Source of the DNA: Escherichia phage vB_EcoS_XY1
Length of the DNA stretch: 45,566 bases
Sequence record: NC_073325.1
Reading direction: 5' to 3' (one strand)
The position numbers and the translations under genes are program-made. The stretch's first letter is position 1, and every line of letters starts with the position of its first letter. Under the pieces are notes generated by a model that did not search any database, had not been told where the DNA came from, and saw only the letters and a program-made list of their open reading frames with translations. This document shows, one piece after another, positions 5,247 through 42,720 of this stretch.

Positions 5247-5897
5247 ATGATGCCAACCGAAAAAGTAGCCAAGAGCATGTGGCTGCGTGCGAATTATCCT
5301 GCGAACAAAAGCAGCAAAACTAAGCGTGCAACTATATGCGATTTTGGCATAAATGACGCCGATTATGTGGTTAGCCCCAAGATAAACGGCAACCGTGAGA
5401 CGTGTCTGGCGTACGCTACATGGCGAGGGATGATCCAACGTTGCGTGGACGCCGAGTATAAAAACAAAAGGCCTGCGTACAGGGATGTAACTGTGTGGCA
5501 TGGGTGGCAAAGGTTTATGTCCTTCCGTAGATGGTGGCTTTGTAATTATGTGGAGGGATGGGAGCTAGATAAGGATATATTCTCTGGTATTAATAAGGTA
5601 TACAGCCCTACCACTTGCATCTTCATCCCTAAATGGCTGAATGTTTTCCTAAAGGAAAAGAAAAATAGGGGAACACCTACGGGTGTTTTTTATGAAGAAT
5701 CTAGAGGTAAATTTAAAGCCTCAGTGAGCTATGATAAAAAAACTATTAATCTAGGACGTTTTGAAACTCAGGAAGAAGCGCTAGATGCTTACATTGCTGA
5801 AAAGATAAGGGTGGCGGAATCAAGAAGATGTGAGATAGAGGCGATAAGGGAAGGTATGTTCGACCGCGTTATCGCCTTGATAAAAGAGGGTCGTTAG
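5247..5897 (+). CDS. Homing-endonuclease-like protein (HNH-associated family with AP2-type DNA-binding domain)
   Basis: AGGAGA SD 7 nt before ATG; motifs YATWRGMIQRC, WELDKDIFSGINKVYSPTTCIFIP and AP2-like INLGRFETQEEALDAYIAE; opposite strand to the flanking tail genes. Confidence 0.45.
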   Translation: MMPTEKVAKSMWLRANYPANKSSKTKRATICDFGINDADYVVSPKINGNRETCLAYATWRGMIQRCVDAEYKNKRPAYRDVTVWHGWQRFMSFRRWWLCNYVEGWELDKDIFSGINKVYSPTTCIFIPKWLNVFLKEKKNRGTPTGVFYEESRGKFKASVSYDKKTINLGRFETQEEALDAYIAEKIRVAESRRCEIEAIREGMFDRVIALIKEGR

Positions 5898-9160: not shown

Positions 9161-9197
9161 CTTGCACACCCCAACATAATAGGATACTATTCACTTA
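9161..9197. promoter_or_regulatory. 37-bp bidirectional promoter/operator element (inverted copy of 30192-30228)
   Basis: Plus orientation TTGCAC-N17-TACTAT; minus orientation TTGGTG-N16-TATTAT; contains the palindrome AATAG-N4-CTATT; 36 of 37 nt identical to the reverse complement of 30192-30228. Confidence 0.5.
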
Positions 9198-9231
9198 CAC
9201 CAACAATGTTAACTCAAACAGGAGCTACCCC

Positions 9232-10631: not shown

Positions 10632-11195
10632 ATGGATTGGAGTGAGGTTTTTAGCTACAAAAATGGCGTCCTATACTGGAAAGTCAAATCATGTCGCCGT
10701 AACGATGTGAATACAGGTGATGTGGCCGGGAGTTTGTGTAAAAACGGCTATTGGTATGTCATGTTTGGTAACCGTAAGTTTAAAAGGTCGAGGGTGGTGT
10801 ATGAGATGTTCAGTACGCTGTATGACAATGAGCCGCGTGTGTTCGTCGATACGTCACCGGATGTTTACAAGATGGTGCAACACGGCAAAACGACGCTGTT
10901 CTTCCATCACGGGCATAAAGCACGATTCGACGCTATCGAACCGGTTATGATTGCCAAGTTTCGTAAAGCGTTCGGCGAGAGTGTTTACAGCTACGCCCAC
11001 GTAGGCCACCTGCACCATCAGAAGATTGTAGAAAGCCGTAACATGATTGTTGAGCAACACCGCACCTTAGCGGCTAAAGATGCCTACGCCTCCCGCGGCG
11101 GTTGGATGTCGGGCCGTAGTGCAAATGTAATTACTTATAGCGCCGAATATGGCGAGGTCGCACGTTTAACTATTTCACCGGAGATGCTTGGATGA
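10632..11195 (+). CDS. Chimeric paralog: homing-endonuclease-type N-terminal DNA-binding region fused to a duplicate of the C-terminal ~100 aa of 9462-10616
   Basis: N-terminus NGVLYWKV...GDVAGS...NGYWYV...RSRVVY follows the pattern that precedes the catalytic motif in phage HNH endonucleases; C-terminus HHGH...HVGHLHH...IVEQHRTLAAKD...GRSANVITY is clearly homologous to the end of the upstream gene. Confidence 0.4.
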   Translation: MDWSEVFSYKNGVLYWKVKSCRRNDVNTGDVAGSLCKNGYWYVMFGNRKFKRSRVVYEMFSTLYDNEPRVFVDTSPDVYKMVQHGKTTLFFHHGHKARFDAIEPVMIAKFRKAFGESVYSYAHVGHLHHQKIVESRNMIVEQHRTLAAKDAYASRGGWMSGRSANVITYSAEYGEVARLTISPEMLG

Positions 11196-19086: not shown

Positions 19087-19129
19087 AGCTTAGCACATTT
19101 TTAGTGAAAAGTCAACTATTCGAATAGTT
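19087..19129 (-). promoter_or_regulatory. Promoter-like site with adjacent 16-bp perfect palindrome
   Basis: Minus orientation TTGACT-N17-TAAGCT; palindrome AACTATTCGAATAGTT at 19114-19129 abuts the -35. Confidence 0.35.
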
Positions 19130-24265: not shown

Positions 24266-24526
24266 TCATTCCCCGCTCTCCTCTCGTGCGATACGTTGCT
24301 CAGTTTTAGTGATACCCCGGCGCGTGAATAACACCGGGCTTGTTTTAACGTGCGTCATCAGACGGTTGTTATAAATTACGTGGCGCTCGCAGTCCACGTC
24401 TTTGCTGTACTTCGCAATCGTCATTTCGTTGATGCCGGTTTGTCGGCACGTCTCGGCCATCGTGCCAAATTCTTTAATCAGGTTAGGAATGCTGGTAATC
24501 ATCCTAAGAAATTCCTCGTTGTCCAC
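24266..24526 (-). CDS. Hypothetical protein, possible DNA-binding
   Basis: 86-aa ORF, last gene before the packaging module; central RQTGINEMTIAKYSK could be an HTH. Confidence 0.35.
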   Translation of the reverse strand: MDNEEFLRMITSIPNLIKEFGTMAETCRQTGINEMTIAKYSKDVDCERHVIYNNRLMTHVKTSPVLFTRRGITKTEQRIAREESGE

Positions 24527-28764: not shown

Positions 28765-29137
28765 TTCGTTTTCCTCTGTCTCGTCTGTGTAAATGAATAG
28801 TAGCCTATTCTATCTTAGTGTGCAAGTAAATTTTATTGGTGTTTTAAAGATAATCGTTCGCCACGAATCCAGTAGTACCTCGGGCGTCTGGCCCACTGGC
28901 ACCAGCGCATAACACGGTACTTGTTGCCGTCTGACGCAACAATAAGCCCGAATCGCTTTTCTCCGTTTCTACCGGTCCAGGTTACGATGTCATTCAGTTT
29001 CATTGTTGCGTCTCCTGCAATAGTCGCTTCGATTGTTGCGTTTGGTGAAAGTGTCGCCTTTTGACGACACTAAGTTAAAGTTGTACGCTGCTGTGTAGCA
29101 GCGTAAGTCACTCAGTAAAATCCCAAACTATTGAACA

Positions 29138-30164: not shown

Positions 30165-30191
30165 AACCCTAACTCCTCTGTCTAGTTTCAA

Positions 30192-30228
30192 TAAGTGAAT
30201 AGTAACCTATTATGTTGGGGTGTGCAAG
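30192..30228. promoter_or_regulatory. 37-bp bidirectional promoter/operator element (inverted copy of 9161-9197)
   Basis: TAAGTGAATAGTAACCTATTATGTTGGGGTGTGCAAG; minus orientation TTGCAC-N17-TACTAT; plus orientation TATTAT -10; palindrome AATAG-N4-CTATT. Confidence 0.5.
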
Positions 30229-30610
30229 AGATTCATTGAAAATGGTTACGTTGCCGTTGTGATTCTTCAGGTAGGGTTGTGCCTTTATTCTTATTACTTG
30301 GTAACTAAAGGGCAGGCCCTAAGCCTGCCCAATAATCGTTACATTTTTACGGTTGCGAATCTACGGCACTTTAAGAAAATCAGATACTTAAGATATATTC
30401 CGCCGATGGGAATAGAGCTTGCCCAGGGCAACCGGAGATACTTAGGAAGGAAAGTTACGATAATTCGAATGTTCAGTAAACTGCCGCCTAACACTTCGCG
30501 TTGGGCGCTCGTTTTCGGCGGGTTTTACAAGGTGAACAGGAATCAAAGTAACTAAGATATAGAAGCACCTTAAACGAAGATTTTCTTAATGTCAATAGGT
30601 GCGATTATGT

Positions 30611-30639
30611 TTGATTTCCCATTATTCGCAATGTATACT
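30611..30639 (+). promoter_or_regulatory. Sigma70-like promoter for the rightward early operon
   Basis: TTGATT-N17-TATACT about 33 nt upstream of the 30672 ATG. Confidence 0.45.
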
Positions 30640-30671
30640 TGGTTTCGTTAACTGATAATGGGGGTTTGAGA

Positions 30672-30842
30672 ATGACACAGAATGAAGTAGCCGAGCGTAT
30701 TGGGGTTACCCGTCGCACGCTGAATAACTGGTTAAAGAGTGGGAAGTTCCCGGATTGTTGTATCCGTATTATGGGCCGCCGGCAGCCGGGTACTTTCGAC
30801 CCGGAGAAAGTGGAAGCGTGGATTAAGGAGAATGTAAAATGA
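30672..30842 (+). CDS. Small HTH DNA-binding protein (AlpA/excisionase-like fold)
   Basis: MTQNEVAERIGVTRRTLNNWLKSGKFP; GGGGG SD; start trimmed from track ORF 30639. Confidence 0.45.
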   Translation: MTQNEVAERIGVTRRTLNNWLKSGKFPDCCIRIMGRRQPGTFDPEKVEAWIKENVK

Positions 30843-31072
30843 CCGAGTTCCAGTCCCGCGTATTTACGGCAGTCGTTTCATTAACCTGTAAAAAAGGGTC
30901 GTGCAGCGTTATGGACTTGCGCCGTAGTTATTTTAGGTACTATAGTTCCGCCATTATTGAAGGGTCGTTGAAGGTACTGGTTAAATCTGGTGTCGTGAAA
31001 AATGTTGGCGGGAAATATAGTGCTGTTGCCGAAGTTCGCGGAATGACCGCTACTTTAGAAGACCTGGAATAA
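30839..31072 (+). CDS. Hypothetical protein
   Basis: 77-aa ORF with ATGA overlap between the HTH gene and the primase-helicase. Confidence 0.3.
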   Translation: MTEFQSRVFTAVVSLTCKKGSCSVMDLRRSYFRYYSSAIIEGSLKVLVKSGVVKNVGGKYSAVAEVRGMTATLEDLE

Positions 31073-31130
31073 AAGAAAGCCCCGACGCGGTGAACGCCGA
31101 GGCTAAATTACTTGCTGAAGGAAATATAAC

Positions 31131-33389
31131 ATGTCCGATGTAATTTTATCCTACTCGTGGTCTCGTCGCAACGCGCGGGCCGAGAAAAAGGATATAAACG
31201 TCAGAACCACACACACGGCAACGCTGGGCGACCTGAAAGATTTAATCCAGCCGCTTGATGCTGTCCGTGACGGAATTAACCCGAAGACCGCACCCGGTTA
31301 TATCACCGCCGCGTGCGACTCCACACACAGCACCGTAAAAGACCCGGAAACCGGTGACTTTAAGCAAGCGCGTAAAGGCTTCTTCTATCGCTGTGATGCG
31401 TCTGTAAGCAAATCGTCGCTGGCGTATCTTGACTTCGATAGCGCAACACCGGAAGAGTATCGGGAAGCGGTGCGCCTGGTTAAGCGCAGCCGCCAGGCGA
31501 TGTGTCTCTACACCACGGCATCACATACCGACGAGTCGCCGCGCTTTCGCGTCGTCATGCCGCTGGCCCGCCCGGTTGAAGGTGGCGACATCATCCGTGT
31601 TCGCCATGGATTACTGGAGCACTTCTTCAAAGGCATGGGCGCGGACCGCAGCGGGTTCACTCTGTCGCAGCCGATGTACCTGCCGCCAGTTGGCTCTACT
31701 GTTATCTGGTCGCGCCGCAACGACCTGATTGACCCTGATGAGTTACTGGAAGGCGTCCCAGCCGTTGACATCAGCAGCGCATCTGATTACCAGATACCGG
31801 AAGAACTGCGCACCGCGTTTACAGATGCGTTTGAAGCACTGGCATTCGAGTACGGCGGCATCATGACGCCGCGTGGCCTTAAGATGCCAGCTACGCCAGA
31901 ACACGCAGAAAACTACAGCGACCCGACCCCGCGCCCGGACGACTTCCTGCTGTGCTTCCCGCGCGAGGGATATGAAGCGCCGAACGTAACGATGATTCAC
32001 GACACCGACATCACGGCAACCGAAGGCATGTCGCCGAAAGAGGTGTGGAAATACGCGTGTGATGCGACCGGGCTGCCGTTCAGTGAAGTCGCCGAGGCTA
32101 TCGGATGGGGTGCGCGTGAATCTGTTTCATGCAGCCTCGACGACCTGGAAGACGATGATGACTCAGAAGAGGACGAGCTACCGGAACCGGTAAAGGCTGA
32201 TTTCGTCGTTGAGGGGTACATGCCGTCAGATTGTATCTGGGATATTGTTGGGGAATCCGGCACGTACAAATCGTTCTATACGCTGGGGATGATGTACCTG
32301 AGCGCCGCCGGATACCGGTTTGCCGGGGCGGATACCCAGCGTTGCCACCATTTCTATATCGACGGTGAGGGAGGCGCAGCTACACGCACACGTATTGACG
32401 CGCTCGCGGCTAAATACGGCGAGGAAGGTAAAGATTACGTACATGTCATTGATATGGGTGAGGTGCTCGCCGCGCATGGTGATAAAAAAATCCCCGCGCT
32501 AATCCGCAGGATGCGTGAAGCTGCAGGGGACGAGCCTATTGGTATGGTCGCGTTCGATACCCTCAACCAGACGCTGGCCCTGACAATTGACAAGTTCGAC
32601 GAGAACAGTTCATCAACTGCAATTGGCATGGGTAAAGTTATCGCCATCCTTAAAAAAGTACGCGACGCAACTAAAGCCGCTGTGGGTGTCGTCCACCATA
32701 CGCCTAAGGGTGGAAAGAAAGCCCGTGGTAGCGGGGCGCTGTATGCCGGTGTTGATGTGGAGCTGACAATTGAGCGCGCTACCGACCGCCAGATAAACGT
32801 ATACCACTCGAAATTTAAGCATGGGCCTCAACAGAAAACGGTTGGCATGGTTCTGGAGTCGGTACAGTTCCGTGAAGCCCCGCCTCCGAAAGAATACCGT
32901 GCGGTTGAGTTCCTCGGTAGCACAGAGGAATACGGCACAATCGTAAACCTCGATCTGCCTGAGCCGCACAAGGCGCTTGTGCTGATGCCGTGGGGCTTCG
33001 AGCCGTTCAAAACTGACGAGGAGAAAGAGCGGGAAGAAGGGTTGACGAAAGAAGGTAAGCAAAAAGTAAAGGAAGAAGTTAAACGCGGCAGGGATGAAGT
33101 AAGGAAGGAGTCAATACTTTCGGCACTGGAAGACCTGCAACAGTCAGATGACACAGGTCGCGGTTTTACTCAGCAGCAGATAGTGGCTCGTTCCGGTGAC
33201 TTCTCTGTGACTAACACCCATCTTGATAAAATGTTGAAAGATGGAGAACTAATGCTTGGTTGCGATGCTAACGGCGAAGTAGTACCGAGAACATATCGTA
33301 TACCCGAAAGAATAGGTGATAGATTAAGGCCGAAGACACTATACGAACCAAATGAGATGCTGGTGGTGACAGAGGAGGATTTGGAATAG
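31131..33389 (+). CDS. Primase-helicase: primase-like N-terminal domain fused to a RecA-fold ATPase
   Basis: 752 aa; N-terminal LAYLDFD and SHTDESPRFRVVMPL motifs; Walker A GESGTYKS; Walker B-like MVAFDTL; VVHHTPKGG. Confidence 0.55.
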   Translation: MSDVILSYSWSRRNARAEKKDINVRTTHTATLGDLKDLIQPLDAVRDGINPKTAPGYITAACDSTHSTVKDPETGDFKQARKGFFYRCDASVSKSSLAYLDFDSATPEEYREAVRLVKRSRQAMCLYTTASHTDESPRFRVVMPLARPVEGGDIIRVRHGLLEHFFKGMGADRSGFTLSQPMYLPPVGSTVIWSRRNDLIDPDELLEGVPAVDISSASDYQIPEELRTAFTDAFEALAFEYGGIMTPRGLKMPATPEHAENYSDPTPRPDDFLLCFPREGYEAPNVTMIHDTDITATEGMSPKEVWKYACDATGLPFSEVAEAIGWGARESVSCSLDDLEDDDDSEEDELPEPVKADFVVEGYMPSDCIWDIVGESGTYKSFYTLGMMYLSAAGYRFAGADTQRCHHFYIDGEGGAATRTRIDALAAKYGEEGKDYVHVIDMGEVLAAHGDKKIPALIRRMREAAGDEPIGMVAFDTLNQTLALTIDKFDENSSSTAIGMGKVIAILKKVRDATKAAVGVVHHTPKGGKKARGSGALYAGVDVELTIERATDRQINVYHSKFKHGPQQKTVGMVLESVQFREAPPPKEYRAVEFLGSTEEYGTIVNLDLPEPHKALVLMPWGFEPFKTDEEKEREEGLTKEGKQKVKEEVKRGRDEVRKESILSALEDLQQSDDTGRGFTQQQIVARSGDFSVTNTHLDKMLKDGELMLGCDANGEVVPRTYRIPERIGDRLRPKTLYEPNEMLVVTEEDLE

Positions 33390-33406
33390 GTAAAAAGAAA
33401 GGGGCG

Positions 33407-33622
33407 TTACGCCCCTTCACCTAGCGCCAGCCACTTGGCGTCTACTTCCAGCACTTCCGCCAGTTTAAACAGCGTTGCCGGGCGTACGTCCTGAGTTACC
33501 CCGAGTGCAAGCTGGTTAATCGCGCCCTGGGAAACGCCGGCCAGAACAGCCAGACGGCGCTGGGAGATACCGAGTTCTTTACGGCGTTGCTCTACACGGA
33601 TGCCTAGTTCAGATGGTTGCAT
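33407..33622 (-). CDS. Cro/XRE-family HTH transcriptional regulator
   Basis: 71 aa; LGISQRRLAVLAGVSQGAINQLALG HTH; AAGGAG SD; divergent from the rightward early promoters. Confidence 0.65.
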   Translation of the reverse strand: MQPSELGIRVEQRRKELGISQRRLAVLAGVSQGAINQLALGVTQDVRPATLFKLAEVLEVDAKWLALGEGA

Positions 33623-33642
33623 GTCAGTTACTCCTTAGTCAG

Positions 33643-33671
33643 TTGATATGTGAATAGTACCATATTAATTA
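33643..33671 (+). promoter_or_regulatory. Upstream operator/promoter copy (TTGATA-TGTGAATAGTACCATAT-TAATTA)
   Basis: Imperfect copy of the operator core 44 bp upstream of the main copy. Confidence 0.4.
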
Positions 33672-33686
33672 TTTTAGAAAAGCCCA

Positions 33687-33715
33687 TTGACATGTGAATA
33701 GTTCGCTATTATAGT
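33687..33715 (+). promoter_or_regulatory. Near-consensus sigma70 promoter with embedded operator palindrome
   Basis: TTGACA-N17-TATAGT; spacer contains AATAG-TTCG-CTATT; 29 bp upstream of the 33744 ATG. Confidence 0.6.
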
Positions 33716-33743
33716 TAGCCCATACCAAACGAGAGGGGCAGAT

Positions 33744-33971
33744 ATGAACACAATCACTGGGGCCATAGCTAAAGGTTTTCGAGCAATTTTCGGCGCTCCG
33801 CAAGAAGTGTGCACAAAACATAAATTTGTACTTTCTTGCGTAGTAGGGGATGAGTTTGATGGGTTCGATAAACTTGTTGTCTGTGACCATTGCGGGCAAG
33901 AAGCTATTCAACACTCAAACGGTAAATTTGAACTAATAGACGATAGCCTTACTGAAGGCGACGGTGAGTAA
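33744..33971 (+). CDS. Hypothetical protein, zinc-ribbon-like
   Basis: CTKHK...C...CDHC cysteine spacing; GAGAGGGG SD. Confidence 0.3.
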   Translation: MNTITGAIAKGFRAIFGAPQEVCTKHKFVLSCVVGDEFDGFDKLVVCDHCGQEAIQHSNGKFELIDDSLTEGDGE

Positions 33972-33995
33972 CTTACACAAACAGGAGAGAAACAA

Positions 33996-34496
33996 ATGTT
34001 AGAGAAATTCTTAGTATTGCTGGAACGTTTCGTAGTTGCACATGAACTGATTGCCGCGAACAGTGCGAAACAAGTTGTTCAGGTTGCCACGCCGCTGGAA
34101 GTAGAGACGGTATCGTACACCAAAGAAGCGGTAGCTGAGTGCGCTGAAGAAGCAACAAAAGAAATCCCGGTTGAAGGTGAAGACGTAGTTGACACTAAAC
34201 CGGCGGAGGAAGAGAAGCCAAAACGCAAGCCGCGTAAAGCTAAAGTAGAGGAACCTGCGCCAGAACCGGAAGAAGAGAAAGAAGAAGTCGATTACAAGTC
34301 TCTGCGTGACCAGATTCAGGCCATCGACGATGCAATTAATGAAGGTCCTAGCGATGCCGCGTGCGACGATTCTGATGAACTGCTGGAAGAGTTCACTGGT
34401 AAGAAAATGAAGATTGCAGCGATTAAAGACGAAGACCTGGCTGAATACCTGGAACGCTTGACAGCAATCAAGAACAAGTATTTCGAAGAAGAATAA
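33996..34496 (+). CDS. Highly acidic protein with central Lys/Pro-rich linker
   Basis: 166 aa; long Glu/Asp-rich stretches (EPEEEKEEVD, DDSDELLEEF). Confidence 0.4.
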   Translation: MLEKFLVLLERFVVAHELIAANSAKQVVQVATPLEVETVSYTKEAVAECAEEATKEIPVEGEDVVDTKPAEEEKPKRKPRKAKVEEPAPEPEEEKEEVDYKSLRDQIQAIDDAINEGPSDAACDDSDELLEEFTGKKMKIAAIKDEDLAEYLERLTAIKNKYFEEE

Positions 34497-34766: not shown

Positions 34767-34970
34767 ATGGCTATTTTAGCTAAGAAAAGTGGTCTTATGA
34801 TTTCTGGCAGCGTTGTCGCTGAAAATGATTTGGTTTACGTATTTCAGGCGGTAGACAACAAACACCCTACGACGGTCAAGAAGGCCAGCAAAGTTGAGAA
34901 GGTTTTCGACGGCGATTTTTCTATTGACGATGTTTTCACGTGGATTAATTCTGCGAGGGTAAGGAAATGA
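34767..34970 (+). CDS. Hypothetical small protein
   Basis: 67-aa ORF. Confidence 0.3.
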   Translation: MAILAKKSGLMISGSVVAENDLVYVFQAVDNKHPTTVKKASKVEKVFDGDFSIDDVFTWINSARVRK

Positions 34971-35239
34971 TTTACCAACTCTACCGCGCCGTCGACAGGC
35001 GGGACAACACAGAGGCACTATGGCTGTTGCGTGCGCCGTCCGGAGCGCACCAGATGGAAGAGATGGCTTACTTAGGCAAAGTACCGCGGCCTAAAGATAT
35101 AGGCCGTCACGTGTCACAGATTAAGCGCACGACATTCGCCAAGCCAGACTTTTATGTCTTTGAGTCGATGTATGGGTGGGCTATGCACTGCGAACATAAG
35201 ACGCGACATTTAATCGACCAGTGGGAGAGCAGGGTATGA
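34967..35239 (+). CDS. Hypothetical protein
   Basis: 90-aa ORF with ATGA overlap to the upstream gene. Confidence 0.3.
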   Translation: MIYQLYRAVDRRDNTEALWLLRAPSGAHQMEEMAYLGKVPRPKDIGRHVSQIKRTTFAKPDFYVFESMYGWAMHCEHKTRHLIDQWESRV

Positions 35240-35515
35240 CAAGGTACGCGATAATTGTAGAAATAGACGGTAAAGACCAGGAACACAGCCGCTACGCACG
35301 TTTGGACGAAGCCCAGTACATCTTCTACACATTCGGCTTCGCACGCAGTTTCACTAATGCGCGTATTGTGGAGATTGCAGAATGACGAACCGTAAAGCGC
35401 GACTTCTCTTTATTAAATGTCACCAGCCTTTTCGAGTAAGCAACTCGACTTGGCTGATTATATTCAACCGTAGCGGTGACACGTGCGCCTACAAGCGCAA
35501 AACGCGTAAAGTTAA

Positions 35516-36778
35516 ATGGGGTGGGAGTTTAAGAGCATGAAACTAAAAGAACGAGGCGGCAATAATGATGTACACGCCTTACTGTCACCGTCAGGCGCTA
35601 AAAAGTGGCTGTCATGCGCTGCGTCGCTGGCGTGTGAAAAAGATATCCCTAACACGTCGGGTAAAGCCGCTGTATCAGGAACCGCCATGCACACCATAGC
35701 TGAGGTCCATCTCAACGCCTATATACGCGGCACTGCGTTGCCGTTGGAGCGTGAAGTCGGCGCTTACGTGCTGGACGAGGGTAAAGGCCAGATTAAGGCG
35801 CTAATTAGCCAGATGAAAGGCGCGGTACTGATTACGGCTGACATGATTGAGCAGGTGCGCAAGTACACCGACTACTGCAAAGCGATTATCGACGTAGCGA
35901 CTTACGCCAAGCTGGAAATGCGGGTAAATCTTACTGAGGTATTGCATCCGGGTTACGAAGGCGTTGAGACGTTCGGAACCGCTGACCTTGTTGCCGTTCA
36001 GGAACTGGCGAACACTGACGAGCATATGCTCATTATCGGCGACCTGAAAACAGGACGGCATCATGTCGAAGCGAAAGAAAACAAGCAGCTTATGCTCTAC
36101 GCTCTCGGTGTTTACCGCCGACTCAAGAGACGTTATAACATATCAGTAGTGCGCCTGGTCATCTTCCAGCCGTACGCCGGGGGCGCGTCGGAGTGGGACA
36201 TCTCGGTTGAAGGTCTGGAACTGTTCGCTAAGTTCGCACAGAAACGCGCACTGTTAGCCCTTGATGCGTATTTCCGAGGCAAGAAGAACCTGAAAGCGTC
36301 GGACTTTAAGCCGTCTGTCGACGGTTGTCAGTGGTGTCGGTTCTCTGAACAGTGCGCAGCGCGTACAAAGACGGTTAATTCTGTACTTGCCGAAGAACTG
36401 GAGGACGACTTTGCGCTGGAACTTACGCCGGAGCAACTCGTAGCTGAATATGAGAAGTTGCCGTTGTTGCGCCAGCACATCGATAAGGTCGAAAAAGCTA
36501 TGGCTGCTGCGTTGCATTCCGGTAAGAAAGTGCCAGGGTACAAGCTGGTGGAAGGTCGCCCAGGTAATCGTGCGTGGAAAGACGCAGAGAAAGTGGCAGA
36601 ACTCTACGGCGACAAGCTGGCTAAAGAAGTGCTCCTGACGCCGACCGAAGCGGTTAAAGTAATACCAGAAGAAGAACTGAAAGACTTCATCACACGTAAG
36701 CCGGGGGCGCCATGCGTCACAACGGCGGACGACAAACGTCCTGAGTGGAATAAGGTTAGTGAAGAAGATTTAGAATAA
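35516..36778 (+). CDS. PD-(D/E)XK exonuclease, Cas4/RecB-like with C-terminal Cys cluster
   Basis: GDLKTGRHH...KENKQLMLYALGV nuclease core; CQWCRFSEQC C-terminal cysteines; start may be the Met at 35537. Confidence 0.55.
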   Translation: MGWEFKSMKLKERGGNNDVHALLSPSGAKKWLSCAASLACEKDIPNTSGKAAVSGTAMHTIAEVHLNAYIRGTALPLEREVGAYVLDEGKGQIKALISQMKGAVLITADMIEQVRKYTDYCKAIIDVATYAKLEMRVNLTEVLHPGYEGVETFGTADLVAVQELANTDEHMLIIGDLKTGRHHVEAKENKQLMLYALGVYRRLKRRYNISVVRLVIFQPYAGGASEWDISVEGLELFAKFAQKRALLALDAYFRGKKNLKASDFKPSVDGCQWCRFSEQCAARTKTVNSVLAEELEDDFALELTPEQLVAEYEKLPLLRQHIDKVEKAMAAALHSGKKVPGYKLVEGRPGNRAWKDAEKVAELYGDKLAKEVLLTPTEAVKVIPEEELKDFITRKPGAPCVTTADDKRPEWNKVSEEDLE

Positions 36779-36782
36779 AGTG

Positions 36783-36811
36783 TTGACATCTGAATAGTTA
36801 GCTATTATAGT
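36783..36811 (+). promoter_or_regulatory. Sigma70 promoter with operator palindrome upstream of the SSB/polymerase operon
   Basis: TTGACA-N17-TATAGT with AATAG-TTAG-CTATT in the spacer; nearly identical to 33687-33715. Confidence 0.6.
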
Positions 36812-36865
36812 TCTAATCACTGGCCGGGCAGCTTCCCGGAGTAATCTTAAAAGCGAGAAATCAAG

Positions 36866-37492
36866 ATGGGCATTAAACTGAATCTGCGTAAAGTAAACAC
36901 TGCATGGGTTAACGTATTCGAACGCGAAAAAGACCGTGAAAACGACGACGGCTCAATCACTAAAGGCCAGTACAGCGCAACTATCATCCTGCCGACTGAC
37001 CATGCTCAAATCGATGCGCTGTACGACACTGTTTACGCTGTAGTTGAAGAAGCATTAGGTGCAGCTGCTGCCGAGAAGTGGATGAAGTCAAACTACGGCG
37101 AAGGCAAGCATATGGATAAATGCGCTATTAAAGACATTGCTGAGCGCGACAATCCGTTTGAAGACTTCCCGGAAGGCTTCTACTTCAAAGCGAAAGCACA
37201 GAAACAGCCGCTGATTGTAACCTCTAAAAAAGGTGAGACTCAGGTGGAGCAGGACTTCAACGTAGACGGTGAACAGATTGAAGGTGAACAGGTTTACAGC
37301 GGCTGCGTCGCTAACGTAAGCGTCGAAATCTGGTTCAGCCAGAAATATAAAGTACTCGGCGTTAACCTGCTGGCGATTAAATACGTCGGAGAAGGTAAAG
37401 CGTTTGGAGGCTCTAAAGTTGCTGCAAGCGTCGACGACCTGGAAGACGACGAAGAAGATGAAGCACCGCGCCGCGAACGTCGCCGCCGTTAA
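36866..37492 (+). CDS. Single-stranded DNA-binding protein (T7 gp2.5-like)
   Basis: 208 aa with an acidic C-terminal tail DDLEDDEEDE; sits between nuclease and polymerase genes. Confidence 0.5.
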   Translation: MGIKLNLRKVNTAWVNVFEREKDRENDDGSITKGQYSATIILPTDHAQIDALYDTVYAVVEEALGAAAAEKWMKSNYGEGKHMDKCAIKDIAERDNPFEDFPEGFYFKAKAQKQPLIVTSKKGETQVEQDFNVDGEQIEGEQVYSGCVANVSVEIWFSQKYKVLGVNLLAIKYVGEGKAFGGSKVAASVDDLEDDEEDEAPRRERRRR

Positions 37493-37551
37493 TATCTGAA
37501 TCAATTTAACTAAGGCCCTTCATTGGGCCTTTTTACTAAGGGTCGAAAATA

Positions 37552-39723
37552 ATGAGTTACCTGTTCTTAGACTTTGAAACATTCTCCGAAGCCGATTTGA
37601 AGAAAGTCGGTTCCTACGCTTACGCCGAACATCCAACTACCGAAGTGCTAATCTGTACATATGCTTTTAACGACCAGCCTGTACAGGTATGGGATTGCAC
37701 CGACGGCAGCGATATGCCGGGCGATTTGTATCGCGCGTTACGCCGCCTGGTTAAGCCGAACAGCCGCGTTAAGATGGTGTGGCACAACGGCTCAATGTTC
37801 GATAGGCTCGTCATGAAACACTGCTGGGGTTTTGACATTCCGGTAAGCAACACCATTGATACGATGATTTGGGCGTTTCGTCACGCGCTGCCGGGTTCGC
37901 TCGATGCGCTGTGCGAAGTGCTGGGCGTGTCCGCCGACAACGCGAAAGACAAACGCGGCAAGGCGCTGATTCAGCGTTTCTCTAAACCGACGCCGAAGAA
38001 CTACAAAATCCGCCGCTACACCGCTGAAACACATCCCGATGAGTGGGCGCTGTTCATCAAGTATGCCGTTAGCGACATTACTGCGATGCGTGAAGTCTTC
38101 CATAAGCTGCCGCGATGGGGTAACTCGGAGTTCGAAGACCGTGTACTGGAACTTGACCAGTTAATCAACGACCGCGGATTTAAGGTTGACGTCGCACTGG
38201 CGGAAGCCGCGATTGAAGCCGTAGAGAAGCACAAGGCACAGTTACAGGAAGAAGCTCAACGTAAATACGGCGGCTCGCTTACCGGTAAAGACTTCCTTCC
38301 GATTCTGCGTGAACTTGCGCCCGCGCACCACATACACAATGCACAGAAGTCGACGCTTAACGACCTGTTGGCAGATGATGATTTACCGGACGACGCCCGG
38401 ATGATTATCGAAATGCGCCTCGGGGCCGCGTCAACAGCGTCCACGAAATATAACCCGCTGCTGTTAGGCCGCTCGTCGGACGACCGACGCCGCGGTTGTA
38501 TCCAGTACGGTGGGGCAAAGCGTACTCTGCGATGGGCCGGTAAAGGCTTCCAGCCGCAGAACCTGGCACGCGGTTACTATCACGATGATGAGCTGGATAA
38601 AGGCATTTCGGCGTTACTTAAGGGTCGCGCCCATCGCCGTTTCGATGTGGCCAAGCTAACGGCATCGACCGTTCGTAGCTGCATCATACCGGAAGCAGGG
38701 CATAAGTTTGTCGTTGCCGATTACTCTAACGTCGAAGGCCGCGGTCTTGCGTGGCTGGCGGGTGAAGACGATTTAATCGAAGTATTTGTAAACGGGGTTG
38801 ATGTGTATAAGAAACTCGCATCAACGGTGTTCAATGTTGCATATGAAGCCGTAACAAAGGACCAAAGACAAATAGCCAAAGCAATGGTTCTGGGACTCGG
38901 CTACGCGGGGGGCGTCGGTGCTTTCGTCACGTTTGCTAAAAACTTAGGTCTTGATTTGAATGACATGACTAACACTTTAGACGGTACATTCCCGGACCAT
39001 ATTTGGGCCGCTACCGCACGCGGATACGAATGGGCGCGTATTCAGGAAGCCAAGCGACCACCACGTCCTGGTGAAAAAGATGACCGACCCTCATATATCC
39101 TTGATAAGAAAGTTTGGCGCACCTGTGACGCTTTAAAGCGCATGTACCGGGAAGCTAATCCTGCAATAGTCCAATTCTGGCGCGATATTGAAGACGCAGC
39201 TATGGCAGCAATCCGTAATCCGGGGAAAGAGTTCACCGCTGGCCCTCGCGGGGTTAAGTTTTCTCGCAACGTAGAAACAGACAACAACGGCAACAAAGTC
39301 GCCGGTTGGTGGTTGTGCATGACGTTGCCGTCGGGTCGCGTTATGTCATACCCTGGCGTCGGGTTAAGTGTATCGAAAGAGACAGATGAAGACGGAAAGG
39401 TGTCTACTAACGTGCGCATCAAGTACCAGGGGGAGAACCAGTTAACCAGGCAGTGGGGATTCCAGTACACATATTCCGGTAAACTCGTGGAAAACTGCAC
39501 TCAGGCGCTGTGCCGTGATTTGCTGGCTAATGCACTGCTGAACGTAGAGGCAAACGGCTACCCAATTGTACTTCATGTTCACGATGAGATTATCTGCGAA
39601 ACTCCAGATTTACCGGAATACAATGTCGCAGAGCTTGAGCGATTGATGTGCGAATTACCAGAATGGGCAGAGGGGTTCCCTCTTGTAGCAGAAGGTCAGG
39701 AGTTAAAACGTTATGCTAAGTAA
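37552..39723 (+). CDS. DNA polymerase, family A, with 3'-5' exonuclease domain
   Basis: Exo I LFLDFETFS near the N-terminus; polymerase motif C VLHVHDEIICE near the C-terminus; 723 aa. Confidence 0.8.
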   Translation: MSYLFLDFETFSEADLKKVGSYAYAEHPTTEVLICTYAFNDQPVQVWDCTDGSDMPGDLYRALRRLVKPNSRVKMVWHNGSMFDRLVMKHCWGFDIPVSNTIDTMIWAFRHALPGSLDALCEVLGVSADNAKDKRGKALIQRFSKPTPKNYKIRRYTAETHPDEWALFIKYAVSDITAMREVFHKLPRWGNSEFEDRVLELDQLINDRGFKVDVALAEAAIEAVEKHKAQLQEEAQRKYGGSLTGKDFLPILRELAPAHHIHNAQKSTLNDLLADDDLPDDARMIIEMRLGAASTASTKYNPLLLGRSSDDRRRGCIQYGGAKRTLRWAGKGFQPQNLARGYYHDDELDKGISALLKGRAHRRFDVAKLTASTVRSCIIPEAGHKFVVADYSNVEGRGLAWLAGEDDLIEVFVNGVDVYKKLASTVFNVAYEAVTKDQRQIAKAMVLGLGYAGGVGAFVTFAKNLGLDLNDMTNTLDGTFPDHIWAATARGYEWARIQEAKRPPRPGEKDDRPSYILDKKVWRTCDALKRMYREANPAIVQFWRDIEDAAMAAIRNPGKEFTAGPRGVKFSRNVETDNNGNKVAGWWLCMTLPSGRVMSYPGVGLSVSKETDEDGKVSTNVRIKYQGENQLTRQWGFQYTYSGKLVENCTQALCRDLLANALLNVEANGYPIVLHVHDEIICETPDLPEYNVAELERLMCELPEWAEGFPLVAEGQELKRYAK

Positions 39724-39844
39724 ACTGATTATCGCGGTACTGGCGGGATTCGCCGCCGGTGTCTACTGTCACGAGGGTCAATACGGCATGATGGTTGCCA
39801 TATTGGGCATGTTCATCGCAATTTATCTGTGGGTGCTGGAATGA
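39713..39844 (+). CDS. Tiny hydrophobic peptide (unannotated in the ORF track)
   Basis: 43-aa ORF MLSKLIIAVLAGFAAGVY...IAIYLWVLE overlapping the polymerase stop; coordinates approximate. Confidence 0.25.
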   Translation: MLSKLIIAVLAGFAAGVYCHEGQYGMMVAILGMFIAIYLWVLE

Positions 39845-39926
39845 AAATTTACTGGTTTTATGAAGAAGACTGCCGAATCTGTCCGCGCTGTGGAATTGAG
39901 CATACGAAACGCGAGGGGTGCATATT

Positions 39927-40079
39927 ATGACAATGTTTGTATTTTGGACGATAGTAACCATGATCGCACTGTTACTCGGTGCGGGAATAGCCGCGATGTT
40001 CTGCTATGGCCTGTTCTTTAAGTTTGCGGGCGTTGCCGTTCTCGGCGGGGCTTTCCTTACTTGGGTCCTGCGCTCATGA
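39927..40079 (+). CDS. Tiny hydrophobic peptide (unannotated in the ORF track)
   Basis: 50-aa ORF MTMFVFWTIVTMIALLLGAGIAAMFCYGLFF...; ATGA overlaps on both sides; coordinates approximate. Confidence 0.25.
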   Translation: MTMFVFWTIVTMIALLLGAGIAAMFCYGLFFKFAGVAVLGGAFLTWVLRS

Positions 40080-40378
40080 CCCCGGAAGGCAAGATTCAGA
40101 AATACGCAAAAGAGCGATTCGAGGCCATCGGTGGCCTCGTTCGTAAGCTGTCTTATGAGGGTAGAAACGGAGCGCCTGACCTGCTGGTAGTCCTACCGGG
40201 AGGGGTGATATGGTTCGTCGAGGTGAAGAAAGACGAAAACACGGAACCGGAGGCCCATCAGTTGCGGGAACACAAACGGCTTCGTAAACGTGACGCAAAT
40301 GTTTTTGTAGTAGGAACAAAAGAAGAGGTTGACGACCTAATAGCGAACTATTATAGTAGTCATACACCAACAATATAA
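40076..40378 (+). CDS. VRR-NUC domain nuclease
   Basis: NGAPDLLVVLPGGVIWFVEVKKDEN motif; start trimmed to the ATG at 40076. Confidence 0.55.
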   Translation: MTPEGKIQKYAKERFEAIGGLVRKLSYEGRNGAPDLLVVLPGGVIWFVEVKKDENTEPEAHQLREHKRLRKRDANVFVVGTKEEVDDLIANYYSSHTPTI

Positions 40379-40389
40379 GGAATTGAGAA

Positions 40390-40593
40390 ATGAGAAAGTT
40401 AGACCCGCACATCGTTAAGTACATGTACGAAAAATATGATGGCGACATTGTAACCGCATTGGAGGGATTAGTTGGCGCTGAATCTGTTTTAGATGATCTT
40501 GAATTTGACCGACTGTGCATATGTATAGACGAGGCAAAACGTAACGCACTGAATTATGTACTAGAAAACTACTGCACAGAGGAAGACGAATAA
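40390..40593 (+). CDS. Hypothetical small protein
   Basis: 67-aa ORF between the nuclease and helicase genes. Confidence 0.3.
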   Translation: MRKLDPHIVKYMYEKYDGDIVTALEGLVGAESVLDDLEFDRLCICIDEAKRNALNYVLENYCTEEDE

Positions 40594-40787
40594 TGAATAA
40601 ACACGAATACGACCGCAAACCAGCACGTGACATCGTACCGGGCGACATGATTTTCAACGTTAAGACCCGTCGGCCTGTTGCCGTGGATACGGTGTTCGTC
40701 GAGTCGAACGGTAAACTGGTTATCGAAGACGTAACTGGCAACGTTACCGCGTTCGGGCGTAAAGAGCTTGTTCTGGTGGCAAAATGA
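40593..40787 (+). CDS. Hypothetical small protein
   Basis: 64-aa ORF with overlapping stop/start. Confidence 0.3.
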   Translation: MNKHEYDRKPARDIVPGDMIFNVKTRRPVAVDTVFVESNGKLVIEDVTGNVTAFGRKELVLVAK

Positions 40788-42208
40788 GTAAGTTTCAAAG
40801 GCGCGAATATCAGAAGCTCATGACTTCGTTCATGCTACAGCATCCGCGCTGTAATATCTGGTGCGGCATGGGAGGGGGCAAAACCTCCTCAACTATGTGG
40901 GTGCTTAATCGCCTGTTTCGCAACGGGCAGCTTACAGAAGAGGACCGCGTGTTAATCCTCGCCCCGTTGCGTGTTGCGTCGGGTACGTGGCCTGCAGAAC
41001 AAGAGAAATGGAACTTCCCTTGTCTGCGTGTCGTCGATGCGACCGGTTCGGAGAAGCGCCGCATCGCGGCGCTGGAGTCAGACGCTAACGTGGTGTGCAC
41101 TAACTACGAAGTTATCGAGTGGCTAATTGACTACTACGGCAAAGACGACTGGCCTTTTACGGTTATCGTTGCCGATGAAAGCACGAAGCTTAAATCGTTC
41201 CGCCGCCGTTCGGGTGGTAGCAAGCGGGCAAAGGCGCTCAGCAAGGTTGCGTTCGGAAAGGTTAAGCGTTTCATCAACCTTACTGGTACACCGTCGCCAA
41301 ACGGCCTCAAGGACTTGTGGGGCCAGAACTGGTTTATCGACGCTGGCGAGCGCCTGGGGTCATCGTACACGGCATTCACCGACCGCTGGTTTAACTCGGT
41401 ACAGAAGGGTAAATCGGCGATGGCACGCGAGTACCACGCGCGACCAGGTGCCGATAATGAGATTCATCAGAAGATGAAAGACATCAGCCTTACCATCGAC
41501 CCCGCAGAGTGGTTTGGATGTGAAGCGCCGATTATTGTACCGGTTGAAATAGACCTACCGAAGAAGGCGCGTCAGGCGTACATCGATATGGAGGAGAAAT
41601 TATTCGCAGAACTGGAGAGCGGGGAAGTTGAAGCGGCTAACGCTGCGGCGAAGACCTCAAAGTGCTTGCAGATTGCATCTGGTGCCGTGTATGTGTCAGG
41701 GCCGGATGGCGAAGCGACCAAAGACTGGGAGAAAGTGCACGACACGAAACTGGATGCGCTCGAGTCGATTGTTGAGGAGTTGCAGGGTGCGCCGTTGCTG
41801 GTAGCCTATCAGTTTAAACACGAACTGGAGCGTATCCTTAAGCGATTCCCACAGGCACAGGCGTTCGCCAAAGGCGCTAGGGGGAACAAGCAGATGGAAG
41901 CGTGGAACCGTGGGGAAATCGAGATTTTATGCGTGCATCCTGCGTCAGCCGGGCATGGTTTGAATTTACAGGACGGGGGTCATCATCTGGCGTTCATCTC
42001 GCAAGGCTGGAACCTTGAGCACTATTTGCAGGTTGTTGAGCGCATAGGCCCAGTCCGCCAGAAACAGGCGGGTCACGAGCGCCCGGTGTTCCTTTATCAC
42101 ATCGTTGCTAAAGACACTCTGGACGGGGTTGTCGCCGCGCGTACCGACGAGAAGAAATCGGTACAGGAAGAGTTGCTTAATTACATGAAGAGACGAGGTA
42201 AGAAATGA
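40784..42208 (+). CDS. Superfamily-2 helicase (SNF2/DEAD-like)
   Basis: Walker A GMGGGKT; DExx box VIVADEST; 474 aa; adjacent to the VRR-NUC gene. Confidence 0.75.
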   Translation: MSKFQRREYQKLMTSFMLQHPRCNIWCGMGGGKTSSTMWVLNRLFRNGQLTEEDRVLILAPLRVASGTWPAEQEKWNFPCLRVVDATGSEKRRIAALESDANVVCTNYEVIEWLIDYYGKDDWPFTVIVADESTKLKSFRRRSGGSKRAKALSKVAFGKVKRFINLTGTPSPNGLKDLWGQNWFIDAGERLGSSYTAFTDRWFNSVQKGKSAMAREYHARPGADNEIHQKMKDISLTIDPAEWFGCEAPIIVPVEIDLPKKARQAYIDMEEKLFAELESGEVEAANAAAKTSKCLQIASGAVYVSGPDGEATKDWEKVHDTKLDALESIVEELQGAPLLVAYQFKHELERILKRFPQAQAFAKGARGNKQMEAWNRGEIEILCVHPASAGHGLNLQDGGHHLAFISQGWNLEHYLQVVERIGPVRQKQAGHERPVFLYHIVAKDTLDGVVAARTDEKKSVQEELLNYMKRRGKK

Positions 42209-42720
42209 TGGATTTCGAAGAGTTTCTACTTAAAGCTCATCTGCTGGCGCGTGGGTTTGACGCTGACCGTCTCCAGGTAGTCTTAGCCCCTGGAGTAGCT
42301 ACGTTTTACCTGTGGGGGTTTGACGGTAGGCTTCGCGGATACCAGCATTACAAACCACATGCCGAAAAGAACTGTAAAAACCCTAAAGACGCGCGGTACT
42401 TTACCAGAACAACAAGGCCGTGTTTATGGGGGCTTGAGTATTTGCCGGAAAGCGGGGTGGTATTTGTTACCGAAAGCATATTCAAAGCCGTAGCCTTGAT
42501 GAATTGCGGGTTCAATGCTGTAAGCGCACTGGGGTCAAATATATCAACAGACCTACGGCAGCAAATGTCACTTTTGCCGTATGACTGGGTGTGCGCTGGC
42601 GACAATGATAAAGCTGGATTAAAGTTCAGCAAAACATTCACCAGAGGATTTGTATCTAACGACCTTGATGAACTTTGTGAAGAAGAAATAACGTATCTTG
42701 CGAGGAAATTTACCAGATGA
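42205..42720 (+). CDS. TOPRIM-domain protein (DnaG-type primase catalytic core-like)
   Basis: VFVTESIFKA (Glu) and VCAGDNDKAG (DxD) motifs. Confidence 0.45.
   Translation: MMDFEEFLLKAHLLARGFDADRLQVVLAPGVATFYLWGFDGRLRGYQHYKPHAEKNCKNPKDARYFTRTTRPCLWGLEYLPESGVVFVTESIFKAVALMNCGFNAVSALGSNISTDLRQQMSLLPYDWVCAGDNDKAGLKFSKTFTRGFVSNDLDELCEEEITYLARKFTR

What the first reader, a model, noticed from the sequence alone, without database searches (positions are those of the whole stretch)
33623..33743. Divergent Cro-like regulator and early-operon control region with two tandem operator/promoter copies
Seen: the 120-bp gap between the Cro/XRE-like gene (minus) and the rightward early genes (plus) holds a near-consensus promoter, TTGACA-N17-TATAGT (33687-33715), whose spacer carries the palindrome AATAG-TTCG-CTATT, and a weaker copy 44 bp upstream (33643-33671), about four helical turns apart. 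Inference from lambdoid biology: palindromic operators overlapping a promoter next to a small divergent HTH gene indicate autoregulated repression. With no CI-type repressor or integrase anywhere in the genome, this looks like a Cro-only timing switch in a virulent phage.
Basis: partly seen in the sequence, partly recalled or inferred. Interest (0 to 1): 0.55.

Follow-up and report, generated by a model that had tools for sequence, protein, structure and literature searches.

The report
Cro-like repressor with seven phage operators
A virulent E. coli phage (Kagunavirus) carries a 71-residue 434-Cro-like protein next to a strong early promoter, and the 14-bp palindrome inside that promoter recurs at seven promoters across the genome; this is most likely an ordinary Cro-type repressor/operator circuit used genome-wide, and binding has not been tested.

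Summary
The sequence observation holds. TTGACA-N17-TATAGT lies at 33687-33715, with AATAG-TTCG-CTATT (33697-33710) in its spacer. A 15/16 direct repeat lies 44 bp upstream.

The interpretation needs three corrections.
- The upstream copy is not a conserved second rightward promoter. On the minus strand it reads AATATGGTACTATTCAC, the architecture of three other promoters in this genome, and it sits directly upstream of the HTH gene. The region therefore looks like divergent P_L/O_L and P_R/O_R.
- The palindrome is not local. AATAG-N4-CTATT is the most frequent 5-N4-5 palindrome in the genome: 6 exact copies against 0.04 expected, plus O_L with one mismatch. Every copy overlaps a sigma-70-like promoter. 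In relatives the half-sites never change while the central 4 bp vary.
- The binder is inferred, not shown. The 71-aa protein is the best candidate: it is an HTH_3 protein, its closest solved structure is 434 Cro, and it is present wherever the palindrome is. A rival 56-aa HTH protein is excluded by phage ST20. However, the recognition helix does not covary with the operator between genera.

No integrase or CI-type repressor was found. The motif is already published, mislabelled as a phage-RNAP promoter. This is a new member of a known kind, of moderate interest.

The parts
33407..33622 (-). HTH71: gene for a 71-aa single-domain 434-Cro-like HTH protein, the candidate repressor
   Evidence: It matches Pfam HTH_3 at E 2.3e-12. 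Its best solved-structure match is phage 434 Cro, E 2e-6 over residues 6-68. The AF2 model has five helices and gives Foldseek hits to SinR-N, HipB, 434 Cro (42% id) and C.AhdI.
33398..33418 (.). G+C-rich hairpin between the convergent helicase-primase and HTH71 genes. It is a likely bidirectional terminator that would make HTH71 a one-gene transcription unit.
   Evidence: The terminator scan finds GAAGGGGCGTAACGCCCCTTT followed by a T-run.
33631..33637 (-). Shine-Dalgarno sequence TAAGGAG of HTH71
   Evidence: Read directly from the sequence. It is conserved in Jersey and St162.
33653..33666 (.). O_L: imperfect palindrome AATAG-TACC-ATATT with one mismatch. It overlaps the predicted leftward promoter of HTH71.
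   Evidence: Found. Both half-sites are invariant in all 36 relatives, including the mismatch, while the centre changes from TACC to TAGC or TATC.
33654..33659 (-). Predicted P_L -10 hexamer TACTAT. Its -35 is weak (CTTTTC/TTTTCT, around 33676-33682).
   Evidence: The same TACTATTCAC layout occurs at three other promoters. Jersey has TTGCGT-N17-TACTAT at the orthologous place. An alternative is TTCACA-16-TAAAAT at 33698-33671. No TSS data exist.
33687..33715 (+). P_R: TTGACA-N17-TATAGT, the rightward early promoter
   Evidence: It scores 11 of 12. Both hexamers are essentially invariant in 36 relatives; one relative has TATATT.
33697..33710 (.). O_R: perfect palindrome AATAG-TTCG-CTATT in the P_R spacer, touching the -10 hexamer
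   Evidence: Found. In relatives the half-sites are invariant and the central 4 bp vary (TTCG, TTAG, CTAG, TTCA, TTTG, CTCG).
33744..33971 (+). First gene of the rightward operon (75 aa, function unknown). Different relatives carry different genes here.
36783..36811 (+). Promoter TTGACA-N17-TATAGT with operator AATAG-TTAG-CTATT (36793-36806), upstream of the SSB-like and DNA polymerase genes
40329..40357 (+). Promoter TTGACG-N17-TATAGT with operator AATAG-CGAA-CTATT (40339-40352), upstream of small ORFs and the DNA helicase gene
9162..9191 (+). Promoter TTGCAC-N17-TACTAT whose -10 lies inside operator AATAG-GATA-CTATT (9178-9191). It is upstream of the phosphoesterase/kinase operon. A leftward TTAACA-N17-TAGTAT that faces the tail genes overlaps the same site.
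30198..30227 (-). Promoter TTGCAC (30227-30222)-N17-TACTAT (30204-30199) overlapping operator 30198-30211. It heads the leftward operon of small genes.
28796..28825 (-). Promoter TTGCAC (28825-28820)-N17-TACTAT (28802-28797) overlapping operator 28796-28809. It is an internal leftward promoter.

Best explanation
The window is a complete genome of a virulent Kagunavirus (Guernseyvirinae). HTH71, a 71-aa protein with the 434 Cro fold, is made from a weak leftward promoter and a strong ribosome-binding site.

It most likely binds as a dimer to the 14-bp operator AATAG-N4-CTATT. Every copy of that operator sits where a bound dimer would exclude host sigma-70 RNA polymerase. There are two layouts:
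- Operator in the spacer and abutting the -10 hexamer: P_R at 33687-33715, and the promoters at 36783-36811 and 40329-40357.
- Operator covering the -10 hexamer itself: the promoters at 9162-9190, 30227-30199 and 28825-28797, and the protein's own P_L.

The predicted result is a turn-down of early and replication-gene transcription as the protein accumulates. The imperfect O_L would give weaker negative autoregulation.

Shown here: the sequences, their enrichment, their conservation pattern, the protein fold, and the co-occurrence of protein and operator. Inferred: binding, repression, transcription start sites and timing.
For: **The palindrome is a selected element.**
- A census with no prior motif ranks AATAG-N4-CTATT as the top 5-N4-5 palindrome in the window (6 copies), in BUCT825 (6) and in Jersey (4).
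- The expected number is 0.04.
- All seven sites overlap sigma-70-like hexamer pairs next to gene starts.

**The conservation pattern is that of an operator.**
- In 36 distinct Kagunavirus versions of this intergenic region the half-sites never change. The central 4 bp, and the 1-3 nt between the -35 hexamer and the palindrome, do vary.
- Across 111 distinct exact sites there are 26 different central tetranucleotides.
- At every site one half-site lies in the promoter spacer, where polymerase contacts do not explain conservation.
- At the orthologous tail-junction promoter in Jersey the palindrome sits 4 bp closer to the -35 hexamer and is assigned a different -10 (TATTAT rather than TACTAT), yet it keeps its half-sites.

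**The protein fits.**
- It is an HTH_3 protein. Its best solved-structure match is 434 Cro, which is also 71 aa and binds 14-bp operators (operator length from textbook knowledge). The fold is confirmed.
- Helix 3 is invariant (SQGAINQLALG) in 13 of 14 aligned Kagunavirus variants that are 77-97% identical overall. Their divergence lies at the N- and C-terminal parts.
- HTH71 is present in every locus that covers its position.

**The main rival protein is excluded.**
- Phage ST20 has no homologue of the 56-aa HTH_17 protein anywhere in its genome. It still keeps HTH71 (97% identical) and all seven sites.
Against: - No binding, transcript or mutant data exist for any Guernseyvirinae phage.
- The protein and the operator do not covary. 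Jersey's orthologue is 49% identical and has a different helix 3 (SQSLITH against SQGAINQ), yet Jersey uses the same palindrome.
- St162's helix 3 (TQSAISH) resembles Jersey's, yet St162 has no such palindrome.
- Two of the Jersey sites lie in a replication module that is 90-99% identical to the window at the protein level, so they are not independent evidence.
- O_L overlaps a -10 hexamer and sits in a region that is conserved throughout, so its status as an operator is weaker than that of O_R.
- Promoters without the palindrome (26121, 25999, 24141) also look like sigma-70 promoters, so no early-to-late logic has been demonstrated.
Confidence: 0.55

Rival explanations
1. The palindrome is a genuine operator, but a different factor reads it. 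That factor could be a small uncharacterised phage protein or a host protein. HTH71 would then regulate something else, or only its own neighbourhood.
For: - HTH71's helix 3 does not track the palindrome across Kagunavirus, Jerseyvirus and St162.
- Three tiny ORFs share the palindrome's pattern of being present in Jersey and ST20 and absent from St162 and VLCpiS11a: 39713-39841, 39841-39924 and 40599-40784.
Against: - Those ORFs encode 28-62 aa and have no DNA-binding signature. They match only PHROGs of unknown function.
- The other two HTH-like proteins fail the distribution test. The 56-aa HTH_17 protein is absent from ST20, which keeps all sites. The NinH-like 78-aa protein is present in St162, which has none.
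- A host factor is unlikely, because St162 infects Salmonella as Jersey does and lacks the motif.
- 434 Cro and the 434 repressor, and lambda Cro and CI, show that different helices can read the same operators (textbook knowledge).
Confidence: 0.2
2. No dedicated binder exists. The motif is a property of the promoter itself: back-to-back -10-like elements (TACTAT or TATTAT on either strand) of bidirectional promoters, or the 'phage promoter' consensus reported by PHIRE for phage fBC-Eco01.
For: - CTATT followed by AT gives TATTAT, and ATAGTA reads TACTAT on the other strand, so each half-site can be part of a -10 hexamer.
- The sites at 9178 and 30198 have -10-like hexamers on both strands.
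- PMC9825357 lists seven sites with the consensus tgAATAGTa-ccTATTat-T as phage-RNAP promoters.
Against: - No RNA polymerase gene is present in the window or in annotated relatives.
- The motif points away from the nearest downstream gene at four of the seven sites.
- At P_R, 36783 and 40329 the left half-site lies in the spacer. There its opposite-strand hexamer is AACTAT or CGCTAT, which is not a -10, yet the half-site is invariant while its neighbours vary.
Confidence: 0.12
3. One reading: two tandem rightward promoter-operator copies about four helical turns apart, forming a local, cooperative, Cro-only switch.
For: - The 15/16 direct repeat is offset by 44 bp.
- TTGATA-18-AATTAT scores 9 of 12 as a rightward promoter.
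Against: - The upstream 'TTGATA' is changed in 4 of 36 relatives (to TTGATG, CCGATA, TTTATA and TCGATA), and the spacing is 44 or 45 bp.
- The minus-strand reading matches three other promoters and faces the HTH gene.
- The same operator occurs at five distant promoters.
Confidence: 0.08

Closest known systems
Phage 434 Cro and its 14-bp operators (ACAA-N6-TTGT)
   Same: - Both proteins are 71 aa with a single five-helix HTH_3 domain. 434 Cro is the best sequence match among solved structures (E 2e-6, about 41% identity).
- Both operators are 14-bp palindromes with conserved outer bases and a variable centre, and both overlap sigma-70 promoters.
- Both genes lie next to the early rightward promoter.
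- The glutamine at the position of 434 Gln28, and the outermost A of the half-site, are shared (the contact itself is inferred from textbook structures).
   Different: - There is no CI partner, no P_RM, no tripartite O_R and no lysogeny genes.
- The gene is transcribed away from P_R instead of being its first gene.
- The half-site sequence differs (AATAG).
- There are seven operators spread around the genome instead of two clusters.
Lambda Cro turn-down of P_L and P_R during lytic growth
   Same: The proposed function is the same: a small early repressor dampens early promoters as it accumulates.
   Different: Lambda Cro has a different fold. Here the regulator has its own monocistronic unit, and there is no competing repressor.
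P1 C1 repressor with operators scattered around the genome
   Same: One phage repressor controls many dispersed promoters through a short conserved operator (my own knowledge; not tested here).
   Different: C1 is a large protein that binds asymmetric operators and maintains lysogeny. This phage is virulent, and its operator is a symmetric palindrome.
Restriction-modification controller (C) proteins such as C.AhdI and C.BclI
   Same: They share the small XRE fold (Foldseek hits) and bind palindromic boxes at their own promoters. They are a known delay or timing device.
   Different: C proteins activate and then repress a single promoter through paired boxes. No such paired box upstream of a -35 hexamer is seen here.
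The 'phage RNAP promoters' PP1-PP7 of Escherichia phage fBC-Eco01 (PMC9825357)
   Same: This is the same motif, tgAATAGTa-ccTATTat-T. The list includes the site next to the HTH gene (TGAATAGTACCATATTAATT).
   Different: That paper assigns the motif to a phage RNA polymerase, which these phages do not encode. It did not note the palindromic structure, the sigma-70 context or the link to the HTH protein.

Membership tests
XRE/Cro-CI HTH_3 family (434 Cro-like five-helix domain) | HTH_3 profile match above Pfam's gathering score | tested here: met
   47.2 bits against a cutoff of 23, E 2.3e-12.
XRE/Cro-CI HTH_3 family (434 Cro-like five-helix domain) | Five-helix fold superimposable on 434 Cro or the 434 repressor N-terminal domain | tested here: met
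   The AF2 model has pLDDT 79 and five helices. Foldseek TM-scores are 0.72-0.77 to 2cro, 1pra and 3cro at 36-42% identity.
Cro-type (as opposed to CI-type) regulator | A single DNA-binding domain with no C-terminal oligomerisation or S24 peptidase domain | tested here: met
   The protein is 71 aa and HTH_3 covers residues 11-65. A terminator hairpin follows the stop codon.
Cro-type (as opposed to CI-type) regulator | Sequence-specific binding to palindromic operators that overlap early promoters | not testable with these tools
   Only the sites and their conservation are shown. There are no binding data.
Lambdoid CI/Cro bistable switch | A CI-type repressor gene transcribed divergently from cro, sharing the operator region | tested here: not met
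   The divergent partner is an operon of small unknown genes. No second HTH_3 or S24 protein was found in the genome.
Lambdoid CI/Cro bistable switch | Integrase or another lysogeny module | tested here: not met
   None is present in the gene map, in window-specific ORFs or in annotated relatives. The literature agrees.
Lambdoid CI/Cro bistable switch | Three adjacent operators (O_R1-3) with graded affinity | tested here: not met
   There are two sites 44 bp apart, each on its own promoter.
Sigma-70 promoter | -35 and -10 hexamers near consensus with a 16-18 nt spacer | tested here: met
   P_R and the 36783 promoter score 11 of 12, and the 40329 promoter scores 10 of 12. The TTGCAC-N17-TACTAT promoters score 8 of 12 by my own reading.
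Sigma-70 promoter | A mapped transcription start | not testable with these tools
   No transcript data were found.
Phage-RNAP promoter (the published label for this motif) | A phage-encoded RNA polymerase | tested here: not met
   No RNAP gene is present in the window's gene map or in the BUCT825, Jersey or ST20 annotations.
Phage-RNAP promoter (the published label for this motif) | Motif orientation matches the direction of the downstream genes | tested here: not met
   The motif is oriented opposite to the nearest downstream gene at 9178, 28796, 30198 and 33653.

The most novel reading that the evidence does not exclude
A single 71-aa 434-Cro-like protein is the master governor of the whole host-polymerase transcription programme of a strictly virulent phage. 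It would act through seven operators built into promoters in two different layouts. The operator would have stayed fixed across two genera while the protein, including its recognition helix, diverged to 49% identity. This would be a 'Cro without CI' circuit that sets early-gene dosage or timing, and that might also exclude superinfecting relatives.
Probability: 0.35. Interest if true: 0.5.

Novelty: new member of a known kind. Interest (0 to 1): 0.36.

Why it matters
- Guernseyvirinae (Kagunavirus and Jerseyvirus) are widely used therapy and biocontrol phages. They are now also K-12-tractable models (BASEL Bas70-76, PMC11990801). I found no study of their gene regulation.
- A seven-operator map and a named candidate repressor give a directly testable model of how a small virulent siphovirus doses its early genes.
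- The result corrects a published assignment of the motif to a non-existent phage RNA polymerase.
- It offers a compact set of orthogonal promoter/repressor parts.
- The case also warns against calling a gene 'Cro' from its context alone. The operator is well supported. The protein-operator link is not, because the recognition helix and the operator do not covary between genera.

Tried and rejected
1. **The 56-aa HTH_17 protein (30672-30842) as the binder.** At first its distribution matched the palindrome: 87.5% identical in Jersey, absent from St162 and VLCpiS11a. I rejected it because ST20, L019 and L039 replace it and its neighbour with a 47-aa plus 149-aa module, and ST20 still keeps all seven sites. 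It looks like part of a swappable replication-initiation cassette.
2. **The NinH-like 78-aa protein (24266-24502).** It is present in St162, which has no palindrome.
3. **Covariation using St162 and VLCpiS11a.** I found no shared palindrome near their HTH genes. St162 has only ATATTA-N6-TAATAT, two or three times, elsewhere in its genome. This was uninformative.
4. **An unbiased presence/absence test using the SSB-like protein as the anchor.** Every locus that reaches the position has HTH71, so no discordant case was found. IMG/VR added little diversity.
5. **Helical phasing of the two sites.** The spacing is 44 or 45 bp in relatives, so it is not a fixed feature.
6. **Rfam scan of the whole window.** No matches.
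7. **Literature.** I found no transcript mapping or regulator study for these genera. The founding taxonomy paper is not held in the library.
8. **Hexamer-pair promoter counts.** On their own these are not above chance, so they were not used as evidence.

Full report
**What the window is.** Over the region 33300-34100 the window is 100% identical to Escherichia phage BUCT825, a Kagunavirus of the Guernseyvirinae. Bases 1-127 repeat at 45440-45566, so the window is one complete genome of 45,439 bp with an assembly overlap. I mapped BUCT825 proteins onto it to get a gene map:
- Tail genes run leftward from 9054.
- A phosphoesterase/kinase operon runs rightward from 9232.
- A long leftward block from 30164 to 12449 holds small genes, lysis, packaging and head-tail genes.
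- A rightward unit from 30672 to 33389 holds a 56-aa HTH gene, a 77-aa gene and the helicase-primase gene.
- The 71-aa HTH gene lies at 33622-33407, leftward.
- A rightward early and replication operon runs from 33744 to about 42850.

**Checking the observation.** The gap at 33623-33743 contains TTGACA (33687-33692), a 17-nt spacer and TATAGT (33710-33715).
- This 11/12 match ties for best in the genome with 36783-36811.
- The palindrome AATAG-TTCG-CTATT is at 33697-33710.
- Forty-four bp upstream, 16 nt are repeated with one change.
- Counts of hexamer pairs are not above chance.
- The palindrome is far above chance: six exact copies against 0.04 expected, and no half-site exceeded three copies in simulated genomes. 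With one mismatch allowed there are 12 copies against 1.28 expected.
- A census with no prior motif ranks it as the top 5-N4-5 palindrome in the window, in BUCT825 and in Salmonella phage Jersey.

**Anatomy of the seven sites.**
- At 33697, 36793 and 40339 the palindrome fills the spacer of a rightward TTGAC(A/G)-N17-TATAGT promoter and abuts the -10 hexamer.
- At 9178, 30198 and 28796 it overlaps the -10 hexamer of a TTGCAC-N17-TACTAT promoter that fires in the opposite direction relative to the motif.
- The 'weaker copy' at 33653-33666 reads AATATGGTACTATTCAC on the minus strand. This is the second layout, and it lies 31 bp upstream of the HTH start codon. Its -35 hexamer is poor.
- Jersey has TTGCGT-N17-TACTAT at the same place.
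- The putative rightward -35 (TTGATA) is altered in 4 of 36 relatives.

I therefore read the region as divergent P_L/O_L and P_R/O_R, not as tandem rightward copies. A hairpin terminator at 33398-33418 and a TAAGGAG ribosome-binding site make the HTH gene a one-gene unit.

**Is the palindrome an operator?** Several observations say yes.
- I fetched 37 related loci from IMG/VR and aligned the 36 distinct versions of this intergenic region. The -35 hexamer and both half-sites never change, and the -10 hexamer changes in a single sequence (TATATT). The central four bases vary, as do the one to three bases between the -35 hexamer and the palindrome, which include an indel.
- Across 111 distinct exact sites there are 26 different central tetranucleotides.
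- At every site one half-site lies in the spacer, where polymerase contacts do not explain conservation.
- At the orthologous tail-junction promoter in Jersey the palindrome is 4 bp closer to the -35 hexamer and is read with a different -10 hexamer, yet it keeps its half-sites.

This pattern fits a dimeric binder. It does not fit a directional promoter consensus.

**Who binds it?** HTH71 is the best candidate, but the link is not proven.
- HTH71 is an HTH_3 protein. Its best solved relative is phage 434 Cro, which is also 71 aa. The predicted fold has five helices and matches SinR-N, HipB, 434 Cro and controller proteins.
- Helix 3 is invariant in 13 of 14 aligned Kagunavirus variants that are 77-97% identical overall.
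- I tested a serious rival, the 56-aa HTH_17 protein. It is 87.5% identical in Jersey and absent from St162 and VLCpiS11a, which have no palindrome. However, the complete genome of phage ST20 has no homologue of it, and ST20 keeps HTH71 and all seven sites. Loci L019 and L039 show the same replacement. That excludes it.
- The NinH-like 78-aa protein is present in St162, which has no palindrome.
- Only three tiny unknown ORFs share the palindrome's distribution.
- HTH71 is present in every locus that covers its position.

Against HTH71:
- Jersey's orthologue is 49% identical and has a different helix 3, yet Jersey has the same operator.
- St162's helix 3 resembles Jersey's, yet St162 lacks the operator.
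- Two of the Jersey sites lie in a module that is 90-99% identical to the window, so they are not independent.

**Lysogeny genes.** No integrase and no two-domain repressor appear in the gene map, in window-specific ORFs or in annotated relatives. Two papers on related phages report the same.

**Prior knowledge.**
- The Jersey record annotates sigma-70 promoters at these positions.
- The fBC-Eco01 paper (PMC9825357) lists seven sites with the consensus tgAATAGTa-ccTATTat-T, found with PHIRE. It calls them promoters for a phage RNA polymerase. These phages encode no such enzyme, and the motif faces away from the nearest gene at four of the seven sites.
- Several GenBank records already label the gene 'Cro' or 'transcriptional repressor'.
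- I found no experimental work on regulation in this subfamily.

**Verdict.** It most likely works like 434 Cro: a small dimeric repressor occludes host-polymerase promoters, here at seven sites and without a CI partner. It belongs to the XRE/434-Cro structural family but is not part of a lambdoid bistable switch. Confidence that HTH71 is the binder and that it represses is about 0.55. This is a new member of a known kind, of moderate interest.

Noticed in passing
window 1-127 and 45440-45566: The two ends are an exact 127-bp direct repeat. The window is therefore one complete genome of 45,439 bp with an assembly overlap or terminal redundancy.
   Followed up: partly
window 30165-30671: A 507-bp gene-free region lies between the divergent leftward operon and the HTH56/helicase unit. 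It holds a strong hairpin (30310-30330), two copies of AGATACTTA(A/G)GA 54 bp apart, and a 14-nt inverted repeat. It may be a replication origin. Rfam gave no match.
   Followed up: partly
window 30672-31072; L045 (ST20) 6954-7539; L019 10059-10644: The two genes upstream of the helicase-primase gene are a swappable cassette. The window has a 56-aa HTH_17 protein plus a 77-aa protein. ST20, L019 and L039 have a 47-aa Cys-rich protein plus a 149-aa protein instead. This suggests alternative replication-initiation modules.
   Followed up: partly
window 19114-19129: AACTATTCGAATAGTT is a perfect 16-bp palindrome. It carries the same half-sites in everted order (CTATT-CG-AATAG) and overlaps the -35 TTGACT of a leftward promoter in the structural region. 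The sequence is also present in ST20.
   Followed up: no
window 9197-9207 and 40364-40374: An identical 11-mer, ACACCAACAAT, begins exactly 7 nt after the -10 hexamer of two different promoters, at the predicted transcript start. P_R and the Jersey sites have similar leaders. Two copies alone are not statistically unusual.
   Followed up: partly
window 33716-33760 compared with L007-L043: The regulatory region is conserved up to the ribosome-binding site. The first gene after P_R then differs among relatives, with at least five different N-termini, so a recombination boundary lies just upstream of the start codon, at or within the ribosome-binding site.
   Followed up: no
window 34967-42205 compared with L002 (Jersey): The replication genes (DUF2800 nuclease, SSB-like protein, DNA polymerase, helicase) are 90-99% identical in protein to those of Salmonella phage Jersey. 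The adjacent HTH71 is only 49% identical and the helicase-primase only 64%. This is a sharp mosaic boundary between genera.
   Followed up: no
window 5247-5897 (+), 10632-11195 (+), 42205-42720 (+): These ORFs are absent from BUCT825.
- One is an AP2-domain protein, likely a homing endonuclease, on the opposite strand inside the tail module.
- One is a 187-aa ORF that follows the phosphoesterase gene.
- One is a Toprim-like 171-aa protein.

   Followed up: partly
PMC9825357, Table S2: The published 'phage RNAP promoter' consensus for Kagunavirus fBC-Eco01 is this palindrome. That phage has two extra copies in its structural region (PP1 and PP2) that the window lacks.
   Followed up: partly
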